UHGV virus genome: UHGV-1341087
DNA from: a virus
Reading direction: 5' to 3' (one strand)
DNA: 8,274 bases
In this document: in pieces, positions 174 through 8,274 of the stretch
How the letters are laid out: each line of letters starts with the position of its first letter
How positions within the stretch are numbered: position 1 is the stretch's first letter
The notes under the pieces: model-generated
What the model was told of the DNA's origin: nothing
Database searches by the model: none
The model's input: the letters and a program-made list of their open reading frames with translations, nothing else
Program-made: the position numbers and the translations under genes

Positions 174-230
174 TTTAGTTATATGTTTAGTTATACGGGC
201 TGGCGCATAGCTAAATCCGTATAACTAGAA
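174..230. repeat. Three copies of a 12-mer (TTTAGTTATACG-like) upstream of int; candidate integrase arm-type binding sites overlapping the int promoter region
   Basis: tttagttatatg (174-185) and tttagttatacg (186-197) in tandem, plus an inverted copy cgtataactaga (219-230), 30-90 bp upstream of the int start. Confidence 0.5.
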
Positions 231-2119: not shown

Positions 2120-2413
2120 CTAATCGCACTTCCGTTTTAAACGGAAACGTACAATCGCATAGCTTAAACGACAAAAGAAATATGCTTGTTACAAATAAAA
2201 TAAAGGCGACCGCAGAGGGCCGCCAGAGGACATGTATTAAACTTGAACGCATCGCTAACAATGCCACATTTGCGGCTGGTGGGCAAAGTAATTTGTATGG
2301 TGGACATACCATCAACACATCCGACCACATGAGCCGGAAAACGGGATATACTCACCGAATCCCTTATAAAACGGGGATCGGGATTACCACCCCGCTGAAG
2401 CAAAAGGCGATAC

Positions 2414-2436
2414 AGACGCGCCACGCGTCTTTTTTT
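2414..2436 (+). terminator. Strong rho-independent terminator inside the alpA-to-replication-operon leader
   Basis: Perfect 7-bp GC-rich stem AGACGCG (2414-2420) / CGCGTCT (2424-2430), loop CCA, then a run of T (2431-2436). Confidence 0.6.
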
Positions 2437-2600
2437 GTATCGACGCACACGCACACCTTATCAATGGTGGGCTGTATGGGGCTGACTTCGGTCAGGCTGG
2501 TTTCCTTTTGCGCCAGTTGTGGTAACCCTGTACAGTCCACCGCCAGCGAGCTTACCACCTCCTGCGGTGGGTATATCCCAACGCAAAAGGAGGCTGCCAA

Positions 2601-2996: not shown

Positions 2997-3284
2997 ATGA
3001 AAGTAAAAAATTCTGGCTTTACTGCCAGCGGTAAAACTCGTCCTAAATTCATGCACGGCGATATTTACCGCGATAAATACGGCAGCACGGTAATGATTAA
3101 GGGCGTGAGTGAACGACGCATTACCTACCGCCGTGAAGGATACAAATATGACTGCGTGATGCCTGTTTATCAGTTCCAGCGTGATTTTACGCTGGTGGAT
3201 CATCGTGAAACCGTAAATCAGAACCGTGCAGCAAGATACATCCGCAAAATCCGCGAAATGATGGTTACTGGGGGCAAGAAATGA
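2997..3284 (+). CDS. Hypothetical basic protein, translationally coupled to the primase/helicase gene
   Basis: 95-aa ORF; its TGA stop overlaps the downstream ATG (ATGA at 3281-3284); weak RBS, so the exact start is uncertain (alternative ATGs at 3049 and 3093). Confidence 0.55.
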   Translation: MKVKNSGFTASGKTRPKFMHGDIYRDKYGSTVMIKGVSERRITYRREGYKYDCVMPVYQFQRDFTLVDHRETVNQNRAARYIRKIREMMVTGGKK

Positions 3285-5416
3285 AACGCGCACCGAACTT
3301 AAAGCACCAGCCAGCCGACAAAATGACGGAGGTTATCATTTTTGCGGGTAGTGATGCGTGGAGCCATGCGAAAGAGTGGCAGGAATGGGCAGGTAAGCAT
3401 ATTGCCGCCGACAATGTGCCGCCTGTCGTTCTGTCAGATGAACACCTGAAAGATATTACCGGTTATCAGATTATTGATGATAGCCGTCAGTGTGTGCGTG
3501 TTTACCGCGCAGGGCACATCACTGAACGTAGCCTTACACAGATCGTCACATTGCTGGCTGTGGCTGGCGTGAAGACCGTATACGAATATGCGGGAATAAC
3601 TGACACCAGCCCGGCGGATTTATCCGACCAGTTGCCTCGCCTCAAAGACGAATACGAGCGCGGGGAAAGTCTGGTGTTGCCCTTAAAGAAAAAAATCACA
3701 GAAAGCCAGGGCGATGATGAATTAAAACCCCGCGTTGAAAGTCGCGCCGATGGTGTTTTCTGGGTAACGCCCAAAGTTGACAAACAGTCAGGCGAAATTA
3801 TCCGGCCTGAGACGTGGTTATGTTCCCCGCTTGAACTACTGGGAACGGGAACAATCGGTAAAGAGCATTACCGCGTGATGCGCTGGAAAAAACCGGCAAA
3901 CCATGAATCCATCACAATGGCGATCCCGTGTGGTGGCATTGGCGACCGTGACGGCTGGCGGTTGCTTAAAGATCACGGCCTGAACGTGACAACAAACGGC
4001 AAATACAGGGCTATCCTGGCTGACTGGATGCAGTTAAGCGGAAACCATGAGGAATGGCAGTTAAGCACAACAACGGGGTGGCATTTTGGCGCGTACATCA
4101 TGCCGGACGGTTCAGTCATTGGTGAGTCTGAAAAACCGATCCTGTTTACCGGAAAAACGGCAGCCGTTAATGGTTATTCCGTAGCAGGAACGGCGGAGGG
4201 CTGGCGCGATACCGTGGCGCGACTGGCTGGTGGTAATCCGTCCATGATGCTGGGTGTGGCGGTATCGTTATCAGCACCATTAATCGGGCTGGTGGGCGCT
4301 GACGGCTTCGGGGTACATCTTTTCGAACAATCATCAGCAGGGAAAACCACCACACAGAACATAGCATCAAGTTTATGGGGAGAGCCGGACGCGCAACGGC
4401 TGACCTGGTACGGAACGGCGTTAGGTATCGCCAACGAGGCAGAGGCACACAACGACGGGCTGTTACCCCTAGATGAAATAGGCCAAGCCGGAAACGCACG
4501 GGAGGTGTCCACGTCGGCTTATACGCTGTTTAACGGTTCGGGGAAATTACAGGGGGCGAAGGACGGCGGCAACAGGGAGATCAAACACTGGCGCACGGTG
4601 GCAATCAGCACCGGAGAAATGGACGTTGAGACATTCCTCAAAACGGAGGGGATAAAAGTCAAAGCGGGGCAGCTTGTCCGCCTGCTTAACGTGCCGATGG
4701 AGAAGTCTACGCAGTATCACGAATACAGCACAGGAAAGGCGCACGCAGACGCGTTAAAAGCCGCCTGGACAGAAAACCACGGGGCGGCGGGTCGTGAATG
4801 GGTTAAATGGCTGGCAGCCCACCAGCAGGAGGCTAAGGACACGGTAAGGGCGTGTCGTGAACGGTGGCGCAACCTGATACCGGAGTGCTACGGCGAACAG
4901 GTTCATCGCGTGGGGGAACGATTCGCCATACTGGAGGCCGCGCTTGTGCTGTCCGGTCATGTTACGGGCTGGAATGTTCAGACGTGCCGTGATGCCATTC
5001 AGCATAACTTTAATGCCTGGGTGAAGGAGTTCGGCACGGGTAACAAGGAACACAGGCAGATTATTGAACAGGCAGAAGCATTTCTTACTGCCTACGGCAT
5101 GAGCAGGTTTGCGCCTGTCAATTATGACCCTGCAAGCCTGCCGATTTCAGAACTGTACGGCTACAGGGAAAGCGAGGGGCGTTACGGTGAGCCTGTTTTG
5201 TTTTACGTCCTGCCGGAGCCATTTAAATCGCATGTGGCGAAGGGATTTAACAAGGATGCCGTAGCAAGAGCCCTTCACGAAGCCGGAATGCTGAAAAAGC
5301 CAGCCAGCGGGGAAGGATGGCAAATCAGAACACCACGTCTTAAGCACATGAAGGGGGCACGACTAAGGGTGTACGGCCTTTTACTTGCACAGGATCATGA
5401 TGATGAAGGTGGTTAA
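3281..5416 (+). CDS. Replication protein, primase/helicase-like P-loop NTPase (toprim-like N-terminus plus DUF927-type P-loop domain; functional analogue of P4 alpha)
   Basis: 711-aa ORF. Walker A GADGFGVHLFEQSSAGKTTT (about nt 4325-4354) and Walker B-like LLPLDEIG (about 4459-4482); N-terminal EVIIFAGSDAW...IIDDSRQ resembles a degenerate toprim fold. Domain names are from recall, not from a search. Confidence 0.88.
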   Translation: MKRAPNLKHQPADKMTEVIIFAGSDAWSHAKEWQEWAGKHIAADNVPPVVLSDEHLKDITGYQIIDDSRQCVRVYRAGHITERSLTQIVTLLAVAGVKTVYEYAGITDTSPADLSDQLPRLKDEYERGESLVLPLKKKITESQGDDELKPRVESRADGVFWVTPKVDKQSGEIIRPETWLCSPLELLGTGTIGKEHYRVMRWKKPANHESITMAIPCGGIGDRDGWRLLKDHGLNVTTNGKYRAILADWMQLSGNHEEWQLSTTTGWHFGAYIMPDGSVIGESEKPILFTGKTAAVNGYSVAGTAEGWRDTVARLAGGNPSMMLGVAVSLSAPLIGLVGADGFGVHLFEQSSAGKTTTQNIASSLWGEPDAQRLTWYGTALGIANEAEAHNDGLLPLDEIGQAGNAREVSTSAYTLFNGSGKLQGAKDGGNREIKHWRTVAISTGEMDVETFLKTEGIKVKAGQLVRLLNVPMEKSTQYHEYSTGKAHADALKAAWTENHGAAGREWVKWLAAHQQEAKDTVRACRERWRNLIPECYGEQVHRVGERFAILEAALVLSGHVTGWNVQTCRDAIQHNFNAWVKEFGTGNKEHRQIIEQAEAFLTAYGMSRFAPVNYDPASLPISELYGYRESEGRYGEPVLFYVLPEPFKSHVAKGFNKDAVARALHEAGMLKKPASGEGWQIRTPRLKHMKGARLRVYGLLLAQDHDDEGG

Positions 5417-5441
5417 TCTCTCGCGTGTAGGTATAAAAACT

Positions 5442-5577
5442 CTTGTCCCACCTGTCCCAACCTGTGAAAAACACACATAACACACTGAATTATACTGGGT
5501 TACATCAGAAAAAGTGGGACAAGAGCGGGACAAGTTAAGGTGATTTTGGGACAAGTTAGGAGCATTTTGGGACAAGT
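5442..5577. repeat. Iteron-like array A: six copies of a TTGTCCCA(C) motif (2 direct, 4 inverted) around an AT-rich spacer
   Basis: cttgtcccac (5442-5451), ctgtcccaac (5452-5461); inverted gtgggacaag (5514-5523), cgggacaagt (5526-5535), tgggacaagt (5547-5556 and 5568-5577, 21 bp apart). Lies in the 235-bp gap between the primase and ssb genes. Confidence 0.6.
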
Positions 5578-5651
5578 CAGCAGGCGTTATTTTTACCTGG
5601 CTGGTGGACATTAAAAATCCAACCAACATTTAAAACCAGAGAGCAGACAAT

Positions 5652-6077
5652 ATGACGGCACAAATATCAGCTTACGGGCGGCTGGTGGCTGACCCGCAGT
5701 TAAAGACCACCAGCAAGGGAACACCAATGGCGCTGGTGAGTATGGCTGTTCCCCTTCCGTGCAGTCAGGCATATGACGGAACAGCGACGATGTGGTTATC
5801 CGTCCTGGCGTTTGGCAGACAGGCCGATGCGCTGGCAAAACACCAGAAAGGCGAACTGGTGAGCGTGGCGGGTAACATGCAGATAAGCCAGTGGACAGAC
5901 CAGAACGGGGAAATGCGACAGGGCTGGCAGGTCATCGCAGACAGCGTAATCAGTGCGCGAACCGTACGACCAGGAGGCAGGAAAGGACAGCAAGGGCAGG
6001 CTACTGACGCACTGAACAGGGCAAAGCAGCAGACGGGCCTGCAGGATGCCCCATATGAGGACGAAATACCATTTTAA
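5652..6077 (+). CDS. ssb: Single-stranded DNA-binding protein (SSB-like, short form)
   Basis: 141-aa ORF with an OB-fold-like N-terminal pattern (W..V..FG..A...KG..V...G....W.D..G..R) and a C-terminal acidic tail ending DAPYEDEIPF, matching the canonical SSB tail (...DDDIPF). Confidence 0.85.
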   Translation: MTAQISAYGRLVADPQLKTTSKGTPMALVSMAVPLPCSQAYDGTATMWLSVLAFGRQADALAKHQKGELVSVAGNMQISQWTDQNGEMRQGWQVIADSVISARTVRPGGRKGQQGQATDALNRAKQQTGLQDAPYEDEIPF

Positions 6078-6112
6078 CTGCCAGTGGATTCACTAACAGA
6101 GGCTAACAAATA

Positions 6113-6649
6113 ATGACTACACTGACTATTAGCAGAAAACCGAAAGGCATTTACGGCATACCACAGAAAAAGACACAGACGACACAGCAGCAGGATAAAA
6201 CCACATCAGCGCATAAAGTGATACCCGGCAATCAGAACGCACCGCAGAGCCGCAAACAGAAGCCCACAGGGGCGACACCGTGGCGGCATATGACCAAACG
6301 CCAGGGCAAAAACCGCAGGCGCGTTAACCGTCTTATTGAACTATGGCCTGAATTATTCAGCCTGGAATCACCGAAGCCGCTTAAGGTAGGGATATTTGAA
6401 GACCTGATACAGGATATTGCCGTCAGGGCGCTGGCTTTTGGGTCAGGGGCATTACGTGCGGCGCTAGCATCTTATGCTCATTCTCCGGGTTATTACCGTG
6501 CCTTAATGGCTGGTGGCGTGCGTTACGATCTGAATTGCCAGCCATGCGGTGAGGTGACACAACAGGAACAGCAGGACGCGGAAGCACGACTGATGGCACT
6601 GAAAGAGAAGCGCAAACGTAAGTCGAACAAGGAACAAGCTGGCGTATGA
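6113..6649 (+). CDS. FinO/ProQ-domain RNA chaperone-like protein
   Basis: 178-aa ORF with a K/R/Q-rich N-terminal extension followed by RVNRLIELWPELFSLESPKPLKVGIFEDL...YRALMAGGVRYDLNCQPCGEVTQQE, closely resembling the ProQ/FinO domain (compare ProQ ...KPLKIGIFQDL... RVDLDGNPCGEL...). Confidence 0.85.
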   Translation: MTTLTISRKPKGIYGIPQKKTQTTQQQDKTTSAHKVIPGNQNAPQSRKQKPTGATPWRHMTKRQGKNRRRVNRLIELWPELFSLESPKPLKVGIFEDLIQDIAVRALAFGSGALRAALASYAHSPGYYRALMAGGVRYDLNCQPCGEVTQQEQQDAEARLMALKEKRKRKSNKEQAGV

Positions 6650-6930
6650 GTATGATTCACGACAGTAAAGCGGAAGATCTGGAGGCTAAAGGCCTGTACC
6701 GGAGAGCGGCGACCCGATGGGCTGAGATCATGCAACAGGTGAACACCGATAAGGAGCGCGAACAGGCAGTAAAGCGTCGCGCGGAATGTATCCACAAGGC
6801 AGCACGTTCGCCCGTCATGCTGGATAATTTCGGGGGCTTGAGAGAGGCAGCAAACCGCACACAGGCGGATATGGGGATAGAAATCGCAAAATCTGTCTGG
6901 CGGAACTACCAGACAGACAAAGTTTTATAG
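6646..6930 (+). CDS. PerC-family-like small transcriptional regulator (tentative)
   Basis: 94-aa ORF whose start overlaps the finO-like stop (ATGA). The motif AEDLEAKGLYRRAATRWAEIM recalls PerC/Pch-type activators common in enterobacterial prophages; family assignment from memory only. Confidence 0.6.
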   Translation: MSMIHDSKAEDLEAKGLYRRAATRWAEIMQQVNTDKEREQAVKRRAECIHKAARSPVMLDNFGGLREAANRTQADMGIEIAKSVWRNYQTDKVL

Positions 6931-6994
6931 TGGCAGTTCTGCATTATTTTTGTGTTATTGAGTTGTAGAGCGTTTCAGGAGTTTTTTGAATCAC

Positions 6995-7195
6995 ATGAAC
7001 GTTTCGCTGGTGGATATTCTTGACAAGTTGCAGCCAGGCCGACGCGTGCCAGCTCGCCGCAGTGCCTGGCATCTTCCGTACATCGTCTTTCTCGAACGGC
7101 GCGGAAACGATTTGATTGCGTTGAATCCCGTCACAGAGGATAGCGTTACGCTATCTCCTGAGAGTCTACTAGCCACAGACTGGGAGTACTGCTAA
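6995..7195 (+). CDS. Hypothetical small protein
   Basis: 66 aa from the ATG at 6995 (CAGGAG 13-18 nt upstream); the ORF track starts at a TTG at 6986. No recognised family. Confidence 0.45.
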   Translation: MNVSLVDILDKLQPGRRVPARRSAWHLPYIVFLERRGNDLIALNPVTEDSVTLSPESLLATDWEYC

Positions 7196-7241
7196 ACACA
7201 AACGCATCGAGGGTGCTGGCGTGTTGCCAGCCCCACCCCCT

Positions 7242-7463
7242 CCGAAATGATCCCCCAAAAAGTGCAAAATGATCCCCCATTAACGAACAGAAAACAAACA
7301 AAGAGCAACAAATAAGCATTATTTACAATTCTTGACAAAAACACCCCCTATTTATAACCCTACCAAATTTAAAATTACATATACAAAACAATAAGTTACA
7401 AAATCAGCAACGGATCATTTCGGAAAAAACGGTTAGTCCCTTTTTCGAAAAGGGATCATTTTG
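7242..7463. repeat. Four GATC-containing 13-mer repeats (2 direct, 2 inverted) flanking a ~130-bp AT-rich tract; candidate origin/unwinding element or methylation-sensitive control region
   Basis: aaatgatccccca exact at 7245-7257 and 7267-7279; inverted partners cggatcatttcgg (7411-7423) and gggatcattttg (7452-7463); GATC at 7249, 7271, 7413 and 7454; near-palindrome tccctttttcgaaaaggga (7437-7455). Confidence 0.5.
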
Positions 7464-7727
7464 TTGCTTAAACTCATATGCGGATTACATATCAATACGC
7501 TAGTGATAGCCGTTCTGGAATGCCACAGAAACGCGCTGTAATCGATTCTGGCGCAATTAGCTGTGCTAGGTAATGATTTACCTATCTGGGGATGTTGCGC
7601 ACGTCTGGATTGCGTTACCACCGAAGATTGTGCGCGTATGGTGGCTGTTACGGTGGCCTCCCGACAACGCAAAATTGCGGCGGCACAGTCGGTTTACCGC
7701 GCTAACACGGCTTGATTCACTCGCTCG

Positions 7728-7853
7728 ACTTGTCCCACCTCCCCCCAACTTGTCCCAAAACAGCCTAGACTTGTCCCACCTTACCTAATTTATTTCTAAC
7801 AAAATCAATTTGTTAGGTGCTAGCGGGACAGGTGGGACGGGTGGGACGGGTGG
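7728..7853. repeat. Iteron-like array B: three direct ACTTGTCCCA copies at ~21-bp spacing, AT-rich spacer, then three inverted GGGAC(A/G)GGT copies at 9-bp periodicity
   Basis: acttgtccca at 7728-7737, 7748-7757 and 7769-7778; gggacaggt / gggacgggt / gggacgggt within 7825-7851. Same core motif and same direct-then-inverted polarity as array A. Confidence 0.6.
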
Positions 7854-8126
7854 TTTTGTATATATATACGAAAAATTGCATTCAGGAGGGGGGCGAAATT
7901 CCTGCAATCCATTACTTATGGAACTGTCCGCCCCGTCAAATTTTTACGCCCGCGCAATTAAAAAAATGCGTCACGCAGGTGGGCATGATGCCGATATGCT
8001 TGTCGGGTTCAGCTTTTTAAGGCGGCTGTAGATGTCAGGTTATCCGTGCTCATCCACCAGCCAGCTTCATAGCGGATAGCCGGAAAATGGTAACGGTTAA
8101 AGCTGTACATTTTTGCAGCAAATCAT

Positions 8127-8150
8127 TTTAGTTATACGTTTAGATATACG
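8127..8150. repeat. Second tandem pair of the TTTAGTTATACG 12-mer (candidate integrase arm-type sites near the distal end)
   Basis: tttagttatacg (8127-8138) and tttagatatacg (8139-8150); 22 of 24 positions identical to 174-197. Confidence 0.4.
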
Positions 8151-8226
8151 ATTTCAAAACTCAATCAATCTACATCTTTAAAATCATGCAGTTACAGAAT
8201 CAATTAAACTACTCTCGTGGAAAAAA

Positions 8227-8250
8227 CCAACCCTTACGGTTGGTTTTTTT
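8227..8250. terminator. Rho-independent terminator, possibly bidirectional
   Basis: A-run (8221-8226), stem CCAACC (8227-8232) / GGTTGG (8238-8243), loop CTTAC, then a T-run (8244-8250). Confidence 0.5.
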
Positions 8251-8274
8251 ATATCTGCAATTAATTCGATAAAC

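What the first reader, a model, noticed from the sequence alone, without database searches (positions are those of the whole stretch)
5442..7853. Two TTGTCCCA iteron arrays bracket the ssb-finO-perC module, resembling a bipartite ori/crr origin
The 8-9 bp core TTGTCCCA(C) occurs at least 12 times and, as far as I can see by eye, only in two non-coding blocks: 5442-5577 (2 direct, 4 inverted) and 7728-7853 (3 direct, 3 inverted). Both blocks have the same layout: direct copies, a ~45-bp AT-rich spacer, then inverted copies, with several copies spaced 21 bp (two helical turns) or 9 bp apart. In phage P4 the alpha primase/helicase binds iterons in two separated regions, ori and crr. Here the first array sits directly after the primase/helicase gene and the second ~2.2 kb away, so the 711-aa protein's C-terminal region is the obvious candidate binder. 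The alternative reading is an operator set for a regulator such as the PerC-like protein.
Basis: partly seen in the sequence, partly recalled or inferred. Interest (0 to 1): 0.78.

Follow-up and report, generated by a model that had tools for sequence, protein, structure and literature searches.

The report
Split mirror-image replication origin of satellite
The two TTGTCCCA repeat blocks are most likely the two mirror-image halves of the replication origin of a small E. coli phage-satellite island, recognised by the tail end of the island's own replication helicase. In this island the accessory genes sit between the halves, whereas in most relatives the halves are adjacent.

Summary
YYGTCCCR occurs 12 times in the window: 6 in 5443-5575, 6 in 7730-7849, and none elsewhere. 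Dinucleotide shuffles give a mean of 1.9.

The window is an ~8.2-kb PICI-type phage satellite at tRNA-Pro in E. coli. It carries int, alpA, P4-like immunity RNAs, DUF4222, a DUF927 Rep, ssb, finO, perC and a phiP27-like cos.

The 711-aa protein is a sequence and fold homologue of the SaPIbov1 Rep and SCCmec Cch initiator-helicases. It is not related to P4 alpha, and no primase domain is detectable.

About 25 related islands carry the same architecture after rep, in at least nine iteron classes. The class tracks only the last ~100 residues of Rep, and both arrays always carry the same class. In one pair the Rep core is 95% identical, the C-terminal domain is 35% identical, and the iterons are TTGTCCCA versus TAACCCGC.

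Array 2 is an inverted copy of array 1. In 16 loci the two are adjacent, forming a ~300-bp quasi-palindromic origin. In five lineages, this one included, 2-7.5 kb of cargo lies between them.

The PerC-operator alternative is rejected. The resemblance to P4 is analogy, not homology. This is a new variant of a known kind.

The parts
3281..5416 (+). rep: 711-aa DUF927 initiator-helicase
   Evidence: Pfam DUF927 E 3e-46. phmmer to the SaPIbov1 Rep chain 8tch E 1.3e-14 and to Cch 5dgk. Foldseek of the AF2 model gives 5dgk E 6e-14 and 8tch E 3e-12 over ~580-610 columns. No Toprim or zinc-ribbon hit, unlike the 893-aa relative L008.
5084..5413 (+). Segment coding the Rep C-terminal domain (about residues 602-711), the inferred iteron-specificity module
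   Evidence: Homology to L021 (93.9% DNA identity) stops at 5083 and resumes at 5630. CTD identity tracks iteron class while the core does not. In the full-length AF2 model, residues 640-700 have pLDDT 83-86 with a strand-helix-helix-hairpin order.
5428..5441 (.). A-rich outer box of unit A (GTATAAAAACTC), mirror counterpart of the box after unit B
   Evidence: Inverted repeat I1, 5415-5459 versus 7833-7877. Alignment of unit A with reverse-complemented unit B.
5442..5459 (+). Unit A tight iterons: 2 direct copies, 9-bp step
5460..5514 (.). Unit A spacer, 65% AT
5515..5576 (-). Unit A spaced iterons: 4 inverted copies, steps 11, 21, 21 bp
5597..5607 (+). CTGGCTGGTGG (contains Chi GCTGGTGG) at the unit A/cargo junction, which is the centre of the palindrome in relatives
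   Evidence: Conserved at this position in L004, L112, L010, L013, L014 and L020. Similarity to relatives with adjacent units ends here.
5652..7195 (+). Cargo between the units: ssb 5652-6077, ProQ/FinO 6113-6649, perC 6646-6930, orf69 6986-7195 (followed by ~530 bp non-coding)
   Evidence: Pfam SSB, ProQ and PerC. phrog_7206 for orf69. PGAP annotation of the identical island.
7729..7778 (+). Unit B spaced iterons: 3 direct copies, steps 20 and 21 bp
7779..7823 (.). Unit B spacer, 71% AT, among the least stable duplex in the window; holds an IHF consensus at 7803-7815
   Evidence: Nearest-neighbour dG -24.5 against a window mean of -34.0 +/- 3.4, rank 37 of ~8250. WATCAANNNNTTR is found in unit B of 7 of 22 loci, against a background of 0.10 per kb.
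7824..7852 (-). Unit B tight iterons: 3 inverted, degenerate copies, 9-bp step
7853..7870 (.). Conserved box GTTTTGTATATATATAC, independent of iteron class
   Evidence: Directly follows the tight iterons of unit B in 19 of 24 loci, whatever the iteron class. dG -24.5.
7885..7964 (+). cos-like region (cosN-like 10-mer at 7925-7934); a neighbour of the origin, not part of it
   Evidence: 79.5% identity to the annotated cos region of phage phiP27. In L009, L015 and L006 the same core lies 5-6 kb from the origin.

Best explanation
The two arrays together form the replication origin of a PICI-type phage satellite integrated at tRNA-Pro. Each array is a complete SaPI-type origin unit: opposed iterons on either side of an AT-rich stretch. 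The iterons are most likely bound by the C-terminal winged-helix-like domain of the island's own DUF927 Rep, a self-loading initiator-helicase homologous to the SaPIbov1 Rep. Unit B (7729-7870) is an inverted copy of unit A (5428-5576), so the whole is a large imperfect palindrome. In most relatives the two arms touch. In this island, and in four other lineages, the accessory genes lie at the centre between the arms. After induction by a helper phage, Rep would bind both units, melt the AT-rich DNA and load itself as the replicative helicase. Unit B has the least stable spacer, an IHF consensus and a conserved TATATA box. The amplified island would then be packaged through its phiP27-like cos site. 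Shown here: motif confinement and geometry, Rep homology, co-variation of the iterons in both units with the Rep C-terminal domain, the mirror symmetry, and the adjacent versus split states. Inferred: binding, melting, which unit fires, and whether both are needed.
For: The motif statistics and spacing hold up. Rep is a sequence and fold homologue of SaPIbov1 Rep and Cch. In SaPIs the ori lies immediately 3' of rep, has at least 2 iterons pointing in opposite directions on each side of an AT-rich region, and is recognised by a winged-helix domain in the Rep CTD (PMC9371898). The same organisation is reported for Gram-negative PICIs (PMC6092414). About 25 related loci show the same architecture with iteron classes TTGTCCCA, TTATCCCA, TTATCCCG, TTGCCTCA, TTGTCTCA, TAACCCAC, TAACCCGC, TGAACCAAC, TGAACCAC and GAACCGAC, and both units always carry the same class. 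The class follows the last ~100 residues of Rep. Window versus L021: core 95%, CTD 35%. L003 versus L005: core 97%, CTD 49%. Same-class pairs have a mean CTD identity of 79%, different-class pairs 45%. DNA breakpoints against L021 bracket exactly the CTD plus unit A, and unit B has switched as well. Unit B reverse-complemented aligns collinearly with unit A in three elements (inverted repeats I1-I3). L116 has rep-A-B-ssb, whereas L021, with the same iteron, has rep-A-ssb...TerL-B. The gene set is that of a Gram-negative PICI.
Against: No binding, melting or replication experiment exists for this Rep or these sites. The C-terminal-domain-only structure prediction failed (pLDDT 44), so the winged-helix assignment rests on the full-length model, on homology to SaPI Rep and on co-variation. 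The inverted copies in unit B are degenerate (CCGTCCCA, CTGTCCCG). The spacer of unit A is only moderately AT-rich and is not among the least stable DNA in the window. L010 and L011 show only unit A in the DNA held, so unit B may be dispensable. Co-variation shows that the two arrays share one specificity determinant linked to the Rep CTD, not that both are used for initiation.
Confidence: 0.78

Rival explanations
1. Only one unit is the true origin. The other is an auxiliary Rep-binding site that acts in cis, like P4 crr, or that controls copy number by titrating or pairing Rep, or that controls transcription. Unit B, with the weaker duplex, the IHF site and the TATATA box, would be the initiating site, and unit A next to rep would be the helper, or the reverse.
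For: P4 has exactly this division, with the same octamer in both regions and crr abutting the alpha gene. Unit B holds the least stable DNA, an IHF consensus and a box conserved across iteron classes; unit A does not. L010 and L011 have unit A alone in the DNA held.
Against: Both units have the full opposed-iteron and AT-spacer design that suffices for a SaPI origin, and they are mirror copies. Nothing in the sequence distinguishes an enhancer from an origin. This is a refinement of the best explanation rather than a contradiction of it.
Confidence: 0.15
2. The repeats are operators for a transcription regulator of the island (PerC, AlpA or another small protein) that controls the bracketed operon.
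For: Repeats flank an operon containing perC. The tight iterons of unit B abut a TATATA-rich box that could act as a -10 element in relatives where a gene starts ~30 bp downstream.
Against: Islands without perC or finO keep both arrays (L003, L005, L021, L115). The iteron class changes with the Rep CTD while the rest of Rep and the neighbouring ssb stay similar. The promoter scan finds nothing at either array. In the window nothing is encoded downstream of unit B.
Confidence: 0.03
3. Array 2 belongs to the packaging site (terminase small-subunit or cosB-like repeats), or the arrays are integrase/excisionase arm sites.
For: Array 2 ends 32 bp before a region similar to the phiP27 cos site. The same juxtaposition is seen in L021.
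Against: phiP27 itself has no such repeats next to cos. In L009, L015 and L006 the cos core lies 5-6 kb from the arrays. The identical motif right after rep has no packaging rationale. A different repeat (TTTTAGTTATAyGTTTAGwTATACG at 175-197 and 8128-8150) occupies the att arms.
Confidence: 0.02
4. Unit B is a functionless relic of an old duplication or rearrangement.
For: Its inverted copies are degenerate, and L004 has one mutated direct copy.
Against: Unit B is retained with matched iteron class in every lineage examined, across at least nine classes and both the adjacent and split states, with conserved spacing.
Confidence: 0.02

Closest known systems
SaPI replicons (SaPIbov1, SaPI1, SaPI5): Rep initiator-helicase plus ori
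   Same: Rep is a sequence and fold homologue (8tch). The ori starts right after the rep stop codon. Each unit has at least 2 iterons pointing in opposite directions on each side of an AT-rich region. Specificity lies in the Rep C-terminal domain (compared).
   Different: Here there are two such units in mirror orientation, 2.2 kb apart with genes between them. The iterons are 8-9 bp rather than 5-6 bp. A separate or fused primase is not detectable. The host is Gram-negative and transcription is unidirectional.
EcCICFT073, the experimentally validated E. coli PICI (pri-rep-ori)
   Same: The gene order is the same: DUF4222 - initiator - iteron origin - ssb - perC. The icd-like/immunity region and cos-based transfer also match. 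The N-terminal ~160 residues of the two initiators are 40% identical. Its origin also holds several opposed iteron sets (GTCTACC) in one 290-bp gap.
   Different: Its helicase part belongs to another family, D5_N/DUF5906/Pox_D5. All of its iterons lie in one intergenic region upstream of ssb-perC, and no distal array was found in that island.
Satellite phage P4: alpha protein with ori and crr
   Same: One octamer iteron occurs in both orientations in two cis regions kilobases apart, and one region lies directly 3' of the initiator gene (annotation of NC_001609). Both are satellites with int, an AlpA-like regulator, CI/C4-type immunity RNA and cos.
   Different: There is no sequence similarity between the initiators (E 1.2). 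P4 crr is a pair of 120-bp direct repeats, built differently from ori, whereas here the two regions are inverted copies of one unit. In P4 the region next to the gene is crr. The requirement for both regions is proven for P4 (established knowledge) and untested here.
Capsid-forming and helper-embedded PICIs of E. coli (for example L021/L022)
   Same: The Rep is 87% identical, with the same split-origin plan and the same TATATA box and cos-like sequence after unit B.
   Different: They carry a different Rep C-terminal domain and iteron (TAACCCGC). The 7.5 kb between their units holds a full capsid and terminase module instead of ssb-finO-perC.

Membership tests
SaPI/PICI-type Rep-ori replicon | Initiator is a SaPI-Rep/Cch-like (DUF927) hexameric helicase | tested here: met
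   Pfam DUF927 E 3e-46. 8tch E 1.3e-14. Foldseek 5dgk and 8tch, E 6e-14 to 1.5e-11. Oligomeric state not tested.
SaPI/PICI-type Rep-ori replicon | Origin lies immediately 3' of the rep gene | tested here: met
   The stop codon ends at 5416 and the first iteron starts at 5442.
SaPI/PICI-type Rep-ori replicon | At least two iterons on each side of an AT-rich region, pointing in opposite directions | tested here: met
   Unit A is 2 direct / 55 bp at 65% AT / 4 inverted. Unit B is 3 direct / 45 bp at 71% AT / 3 inverted. The criterion is taken from PMC9371898.
SaPI/PICI-type Rep-ori replicon | Iteron specificity resides in a winged-helix domain of the Rep C-terminus | tested here: inconclusive
   Co-variation of iteron class with residues ~610-711 is strong. 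The full-length model has a confident strand-helix-helix-hairpin at 639-702. The domain-only model failed, and no fold match restricted to the domain was obtained.
SaPI/PICI-type Rep-ori replicon | Rep binds the iterons, melts the AT region and drives autonomous replication | not testable with these tools
   Needs EMSA or footprinting and plasmid maintenance assays.
Gram-negative PICI (island level) | int, alpA and pri/rep transcribed in one direction, a specific att site, cos or terS, small size | tested here: met
   int, AlpA and Rep are all on the + strand. The island lies between tRNA-Pro and yejO with arm repeats at both ends. A cos-like region is present. Size is ~8.2 kb. Helper-dependent induction not testable.
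P4 alpha-ori-crr replicon | Initiator is a P4 alpha-type protein (primase plus D5/SF3-type helicase plus C-terminal DNA-binding domain) | tested here: not met
   BLASTP against P4 alpha has a best E of 1.2. Pfam finds only DUF927.
P4 alpha-ori-crr replicon | The same octamer repeat in two separated cis regions, in both orientations | tested here: met
   Window. P4 type-1 repeats lie at 4314-4585 and 9310-9413.
P4 alpha-ori-crr replicon | crr is built of two 120-bp direct repeats, distinct in design from ori | tested here: not met
   The two units are inverted copies of each other. No long direct repeat links them.
P4 alpha-ori-crr replicon | Both regions required in cis for replication | not testable with these tools
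   Needs deletion analysis.

The most novel reading that the evidence does not exclude
DUF927-Rep satellites use a dyad-symmetric, two-unit origin whose centre, marked by a conserved Chi-containing CTGGCTGGTGG, is a recurrent slot for cargo. Accessory or even whole packaging modules (2-7.5 kb) are repeatedly placed between the two arms, and the split origin still works because the distal arm acts in cis with the proximal one. That would be a P4 ori/crr-like solution reached independently by a SaPI-type initiator. The arm far from rep, with the weak duplex, the IHF site and the TATATA box, would be where melting starts.
Probability: 0.3. Interest if true: 0.65.

Novelty: new variant of a known kind. 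Interest (0 to 1): 0.5.

Why it matters
Iteron origins placed just after rep are textbook for SaPIs and have been reported for E. coli PICIs. A mirror-image two-unit origin that can be pulled apart by kilobases of cargo was not described in any paper I could find in the searched library.

If both arms are needed, this family offers a natural series for studying long-range cooperation between origin halves with a self-loading helicase. The series runs from adjacent arms to arms split by 2.2, 4.4, 4.6-6.1, 6.9 and 7.5 kb.

The clean pairing of the Rep C-terminal domain with iteron class gives at least nine natural specificity variants. These would help in predicting satellite incompatibility and in building orthogonal replicons.

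On the practical side, the arrays mark the boundaries of the variable cargo, including the virulence regulator perC, in islands that genome annotation leaves unlabelled.

Tried and rejected
- **Exact-pattern scan of IMG/VR** for GGGACAAG-N13-GGGACAAG. It gave 83 scattered environmental hits at about the chance level. None was followed up.
- **Structure prediction of the C-terminal 112 residues alone**. pLDDT was 44, which is unusable, so no domain-level fold search was run.
- **Promoter/terminator scan of 5300-8274**. It found no promoter-like site at either array and fewer sites than shuffles give, so a promoter/operator reading gains nothing.
- **Rfam scan of the window**. No RNA family falls in or near the arrays. 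The hits (isrK, C4) lie at 2359-2547.
- **PerC, AlpA or DUF4222 as the binder.** Rejected, because iteron class follows only the Rep C-terminus and perC is absent from many islands that keep the arrays.
- **cosB/terminase sites.** Rejected, because cos and the arrays are unlinked in relatives.
- **Integrase arm sites.** Rejected, because a different repeat occupies both att ends.
- **DnaA boxes.** TTATCCCAC-type iterons differ from TTATNCACA at three positions, so this was not pursued.
- **Phage-database DNA search of 6930-8274**. It returned only the phiP27 cos match.
Full report
**1.

- Exact TTGTCCCA occurs seven times in the 8,274-bp window. All seven lie in 5443-5575 or 7730-7778. Chance expectation is 0.33, and no shuffle out of 200 reaches 7.
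- Allowing the degeneracy seen in the remaining copies (YYGTCCCR) gives 12 sites: six per block and none elsewhere. In 1000 dinucleotide shuffles the mean is 1.95, and the largest cluster is 6 observed against at most 3.
- Block 1 is 2 direct copies (9-bp step), 55 bp at 65% AT, then 4 inverted copies (steps 11, 21, 21).
- Block 2 is 3 direct copies (steps 20, 21), 45 bp at 71% AT, then 3 inverted copies (steps 9, 9).

**2. What the window is**

The window matches a chromosomal island found in about 1% of complete E. coli genomes (53 of 5,426 at 80% coverage or more). These include strain 042, and the island is also in E. albertii (L004). It lies between tRNA-Pro and yejO.

All genes are on the + strand:
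- integrase
- AlpA
- an ash pseudogene holding Rfam isrK and C4 (P4 CI-type) RNAs
- an icd-like ORF
- DUF4222
- a 711-aa DUF927 protein
- ssb
- a ProQ/FinO-family gene
- perC
- a 69-aa ORF

Positions 7885-7964 resemble the annotated cos region of the HNH-cos phage phiP27 (79.5% identity). A 23-nt repeat at both ends looks like integrase arm sites.

This is the gene set and order of Gram-negative phage-inducible chromosomal islands (PMC6092414; PMC10111431). The validated EcCICFT073 has the same order: DUF4222 - initiator - origin - ssb - perC.

**3. The protein**

- The 711-aa protein is homologous to the SaPIbov1 replication initiator-helicase (8tch, E 1.3e-14) and to the SCCmec helicase Cch.
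- An AlphaFold model has mean pLDDT 69, with the ATPase core poor and the N- and C-terminal parts good. It finds the same two structures by Foldseek, at E 6e-14 and 3e-12.
- It has no similarity to P4 alpha.
- Pfam detects no Toprim or zinc ribbon, whereas an 893-aa relative has both. The 'primase' label is therefore unsupported.
- Its first ~160 residues are 40% identical to the N-terminus of the EcCICFT073 initiator, whose helicase belongs to a different family.

**4. Comparative test**

I collected Rep relatives from one genome per species, a phage record, and contigs encoding Rep variants of 61-87% identity.

Every locus has iterons directly after rep with the same geometry, but the sequence differs by lineage. 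The classes are TTGTCCCA, TTATCCCA, TTATCCCG, TTGCCTCA, TTGTCTCA, TAACCCAC, TAACCCGC, TGAACCAAC, TGAACCAC and GAACCGAC. In each locus both arrays carry the same class.

The class is predicted by the last ~100 residues of Rep and by nothing else in the protein:

| Pair | Rep core identity | C-terminal identity | Iterons |
|---|---|---|---|
| Window vs L021 | 95% | 35% | TTGTCCCA vs TAACCCGC |
| L003 vs L005 | 97% | 49% | TGAACCAAC vs TAACCCAC |

- Same-class pairs average 79% C-terminal identity, and different-class pairs 45%.
- Related C-terminal types pair with related iterons. For example...GWQIRTPRLKH... goes with TTGTCCCA...GWKIKTPRLKH... with TTGCCTCA, and ...RGYQRKSPRI... versus ...QRFQQKSPRI... 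with TGAACCAAC versus TGAACCAC.
- At the DNA level, similarity between the window and L021 stops at 5083 and resumes at 5630. It thus brackets exactly the C-terminal coding segment plus unit A. The distal unit B has switched class as well.

This is the pattern expected if the C-terminal domain reads the iterons, as shown experimentally for SaPI Reps (PMC9371898). It also implies that matching at the distal array is under selection.

**5. Architecture**

Reverse-complemented unit B aligns collinearly with unit A in three elements (inverted repeats I1-I3). Each unit reads: A-rich/TATA box, tight iterons at a 9-bp step, AT spacer, then spaced iterons at a 21-bp step.

In 16 loci the two units are adjacent, forming a ~300-bp imperfect palindrome right after rep. 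In five lineages they are apart:

| Lineage | Separation | Cargo between the units |
|---|---|---|
| This island | 2.2 kb | ssb, finO, perC, orf69 |
| L023/L024 | 4-4.4 kb | orf138, ssb, ProQ, PerC and further genes to an antiterminator Q homologue |
| L013/L014 | 4.6 / 6.1 kb | tail/baseplate-like genes |
| L114 | 6.9 kb | second integrase, Hok-like, HTH, P2-type capsid scaffold and Ogr/Delta genes |
| L021/L022 | 7.5 kb | ssb plus a capsid, portal and terminase module |

- The same iteron class occurs in both states, so the change happened repeatedly. TAACCCGC is adjacent in L116 and split in L021. TTGTCCCA is adjacent in L117 and split here and in L114.
- L116 against L021 shows it directly: rep-A-B-ssb versus rep-A-ssb...TerL-B.
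- In several split lineages, this one included, the break falls just after a conserved CTGGCTGGTGG at the palindrome centre.
- A box TTTTGTwTATATA follows the tight iterons of unit B in 19 of 24 loci, whatever the iteron class.
- Unit B's spacer and this box are among the least stable duplex in the window (dG -24.5 against a mean of -34.0). The spacer carries an IHF consensus, found in unit B of 7 of 22 loci. Unit A's spacer is less extreme.

**6. Mechanism**

By homology with SaPIs, Rep would bind the opposed iterons through its C-terminal domain without ATP. It would then melt the AT-rich DNA and load itself, probably as two hexamers per unit (PMC9371898).

I infer that both units are Rep-bound parts of one origin. 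Whether they fire independently or cooperate over 2.2 kb as P4 ori and crr do cannot be decided from sequence, and neither can whether one serves as a Rep sink. The features of unit B make it the better candidate for the melting site. That would make the rep-proximal unit A the counterpart of P4 crr, which also abuts its initiator gene.

**7. Rivals**

- **PerC or another regulator as binder.** Excluded by islands that lack perC and finO yet keep both arrays, and by the exclusive link to the Rep C-terminus.
- **Packaging or cosB role for unit B.** Excluded because cos and the arrays are 5-6 kb apart in L009, L015 and L006, and because phiP27 has no such repeats.
- **Integrase arm sites.** These are a different repeat.
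- **A dead relic.** Unlikely, given matched class and spacing in all lineages.

**8. Comparison with known systems and novelty**

As a replicon this is a member of the SaPI/PICI Rep-ori kind; every feature that could be tested was met.

It is not a member of the P4 alpha-ori-crr family. The initiator is unrelated and the crr design is absent. It does resemble that family in having one iteron in two distant cis regions.

The literature searches in the held library found the PICI origin described only as two iteron sets flanking an AT-rich region next to rep. They found no description of a mirror-duplicated or split origin. I therefore rate it a new variant of a known kind, of moderate interest. 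The basic reading (satellite origin, Rep iterons) is expected. The dyad design, the recurrent placement of cargo between the arms, and the clean specificity code are new details.

Noticed in passing
window 1422, 2275, 3191, 4226, 4288, 5600, 5681, 6509, 7006 (+ strand); 4819, 5707, 8054 (- strand): The Chi octamer GCTGGTGG occurs 12 times in 8.3 kb, 9 of them on the + strand. Shuffles give a mean of 0.27 and a maximum of 3. Related PICIs hold 0.6-1.1 per kb, against 0.10 per kb in 49 kb of CFT073 chromosome plus lambdoid prophage. The majority orientation would face RecBCD entering from the cos-proximal right end. This may protect the satellite's linear or rolling-circle DNA.
   Followed up: partly
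window 3281-3760 (Rep residues 1-160); L028 10242-10720: The N-terminal ~160 residues of the DUF927 Rep are 40% identical (E 9e-27) to the N-terminus of the EcCICFT073 Pri-Rep, whose helicase belongs to an unrelated family (D5_N/DUF5906). This is a shared, confidently folded alpha/beta domain (pLDDT 85-91) of unknown role, with no Pfam Toprim hit.
   Followed up: partly
window 2359-2547: Rfam isrK (55 bits) and C4/P4-CI-type antisense RNA (78 bits) lie inside an ash pseudogene, followed by an icd-like ORF. This is a P4-style RNA immunity module in a PICI with a SaPI-type Rep.
   Followed up: no
window 7885-7964: A cos-like region is 79.5% identical to the annotated cos region of Stx phage phiP27 (HNH-cos-TerS-TerL). 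The 10-mer TGTCCGCCCC at 7925-7934 compares with phiP27 CGCCCGCCCC. This points to an HNH-cos (HK97-like) helper.
   Followed up: partly
window 175-197 and 8128-8150; about 8204-8230: The direct repeat TTTTAGTTATAyGTTTAGwTATACG sits near both ends of the island and probably represents integrase arm-type sites. A degraded copy of the tRNA-Pro 3' end (…CTCTCGTG…ACCA) marks the right junction.
   Followed up: no
window 7803-7815: A perfect IHF consensus (AATCAATTTGTTA) lies in the AT spacer of unit B. The consensus is present in unit B of 7 of 22 related loci and in unit A of 1, against a background of 0.10 per kb.
   Followed up: partly
window 7196-7727: About 530 bp of non-coding DNA lies between orf69 and unit B, with a terminator-like hairpin at 7436-7456 and very AT-rich DNA at 7365-7390. 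This might encode a small RNA, possibly a partner of the FinO-domain protein. PGAP calls only a 50-aa hypothetical ORF at 7563-7715.
   Followed up: no
L012 5152-5411, 9734-9993, 10915-11204; L025/L026 10200-10510: Yersinia pekkanenii carries three copies of the double iteron array in 6 kb, perhaps from tandem or rearranged islands. In the E. coli TTGTCTCA-class islands the two units are adjacent but in swapped order, with the B-like unit and its TATATA box first.
   Followed up: no
L021/L022 (E. coli contigs), 1-18124: A capsid-forming PICI with an 87%-identical Rep is inserted in the terminase large-subunit gene of a prophage (helper-embedded type). Its origin units lie 7.5 kb apart, around the whole capsid, portal and terminase module.
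   Followed up: partly
L114 11530-17463: In another TTGTCCCA-class E. coli island, the 6.9 kb between the origin units holds a second integrase, a Hok-like gene, a P2-type capsid scaffold gene and an Ogr/Delta-type zinc-finger activator. This may be a P4-like element or module nested between the origin arms.
   Followed up: no
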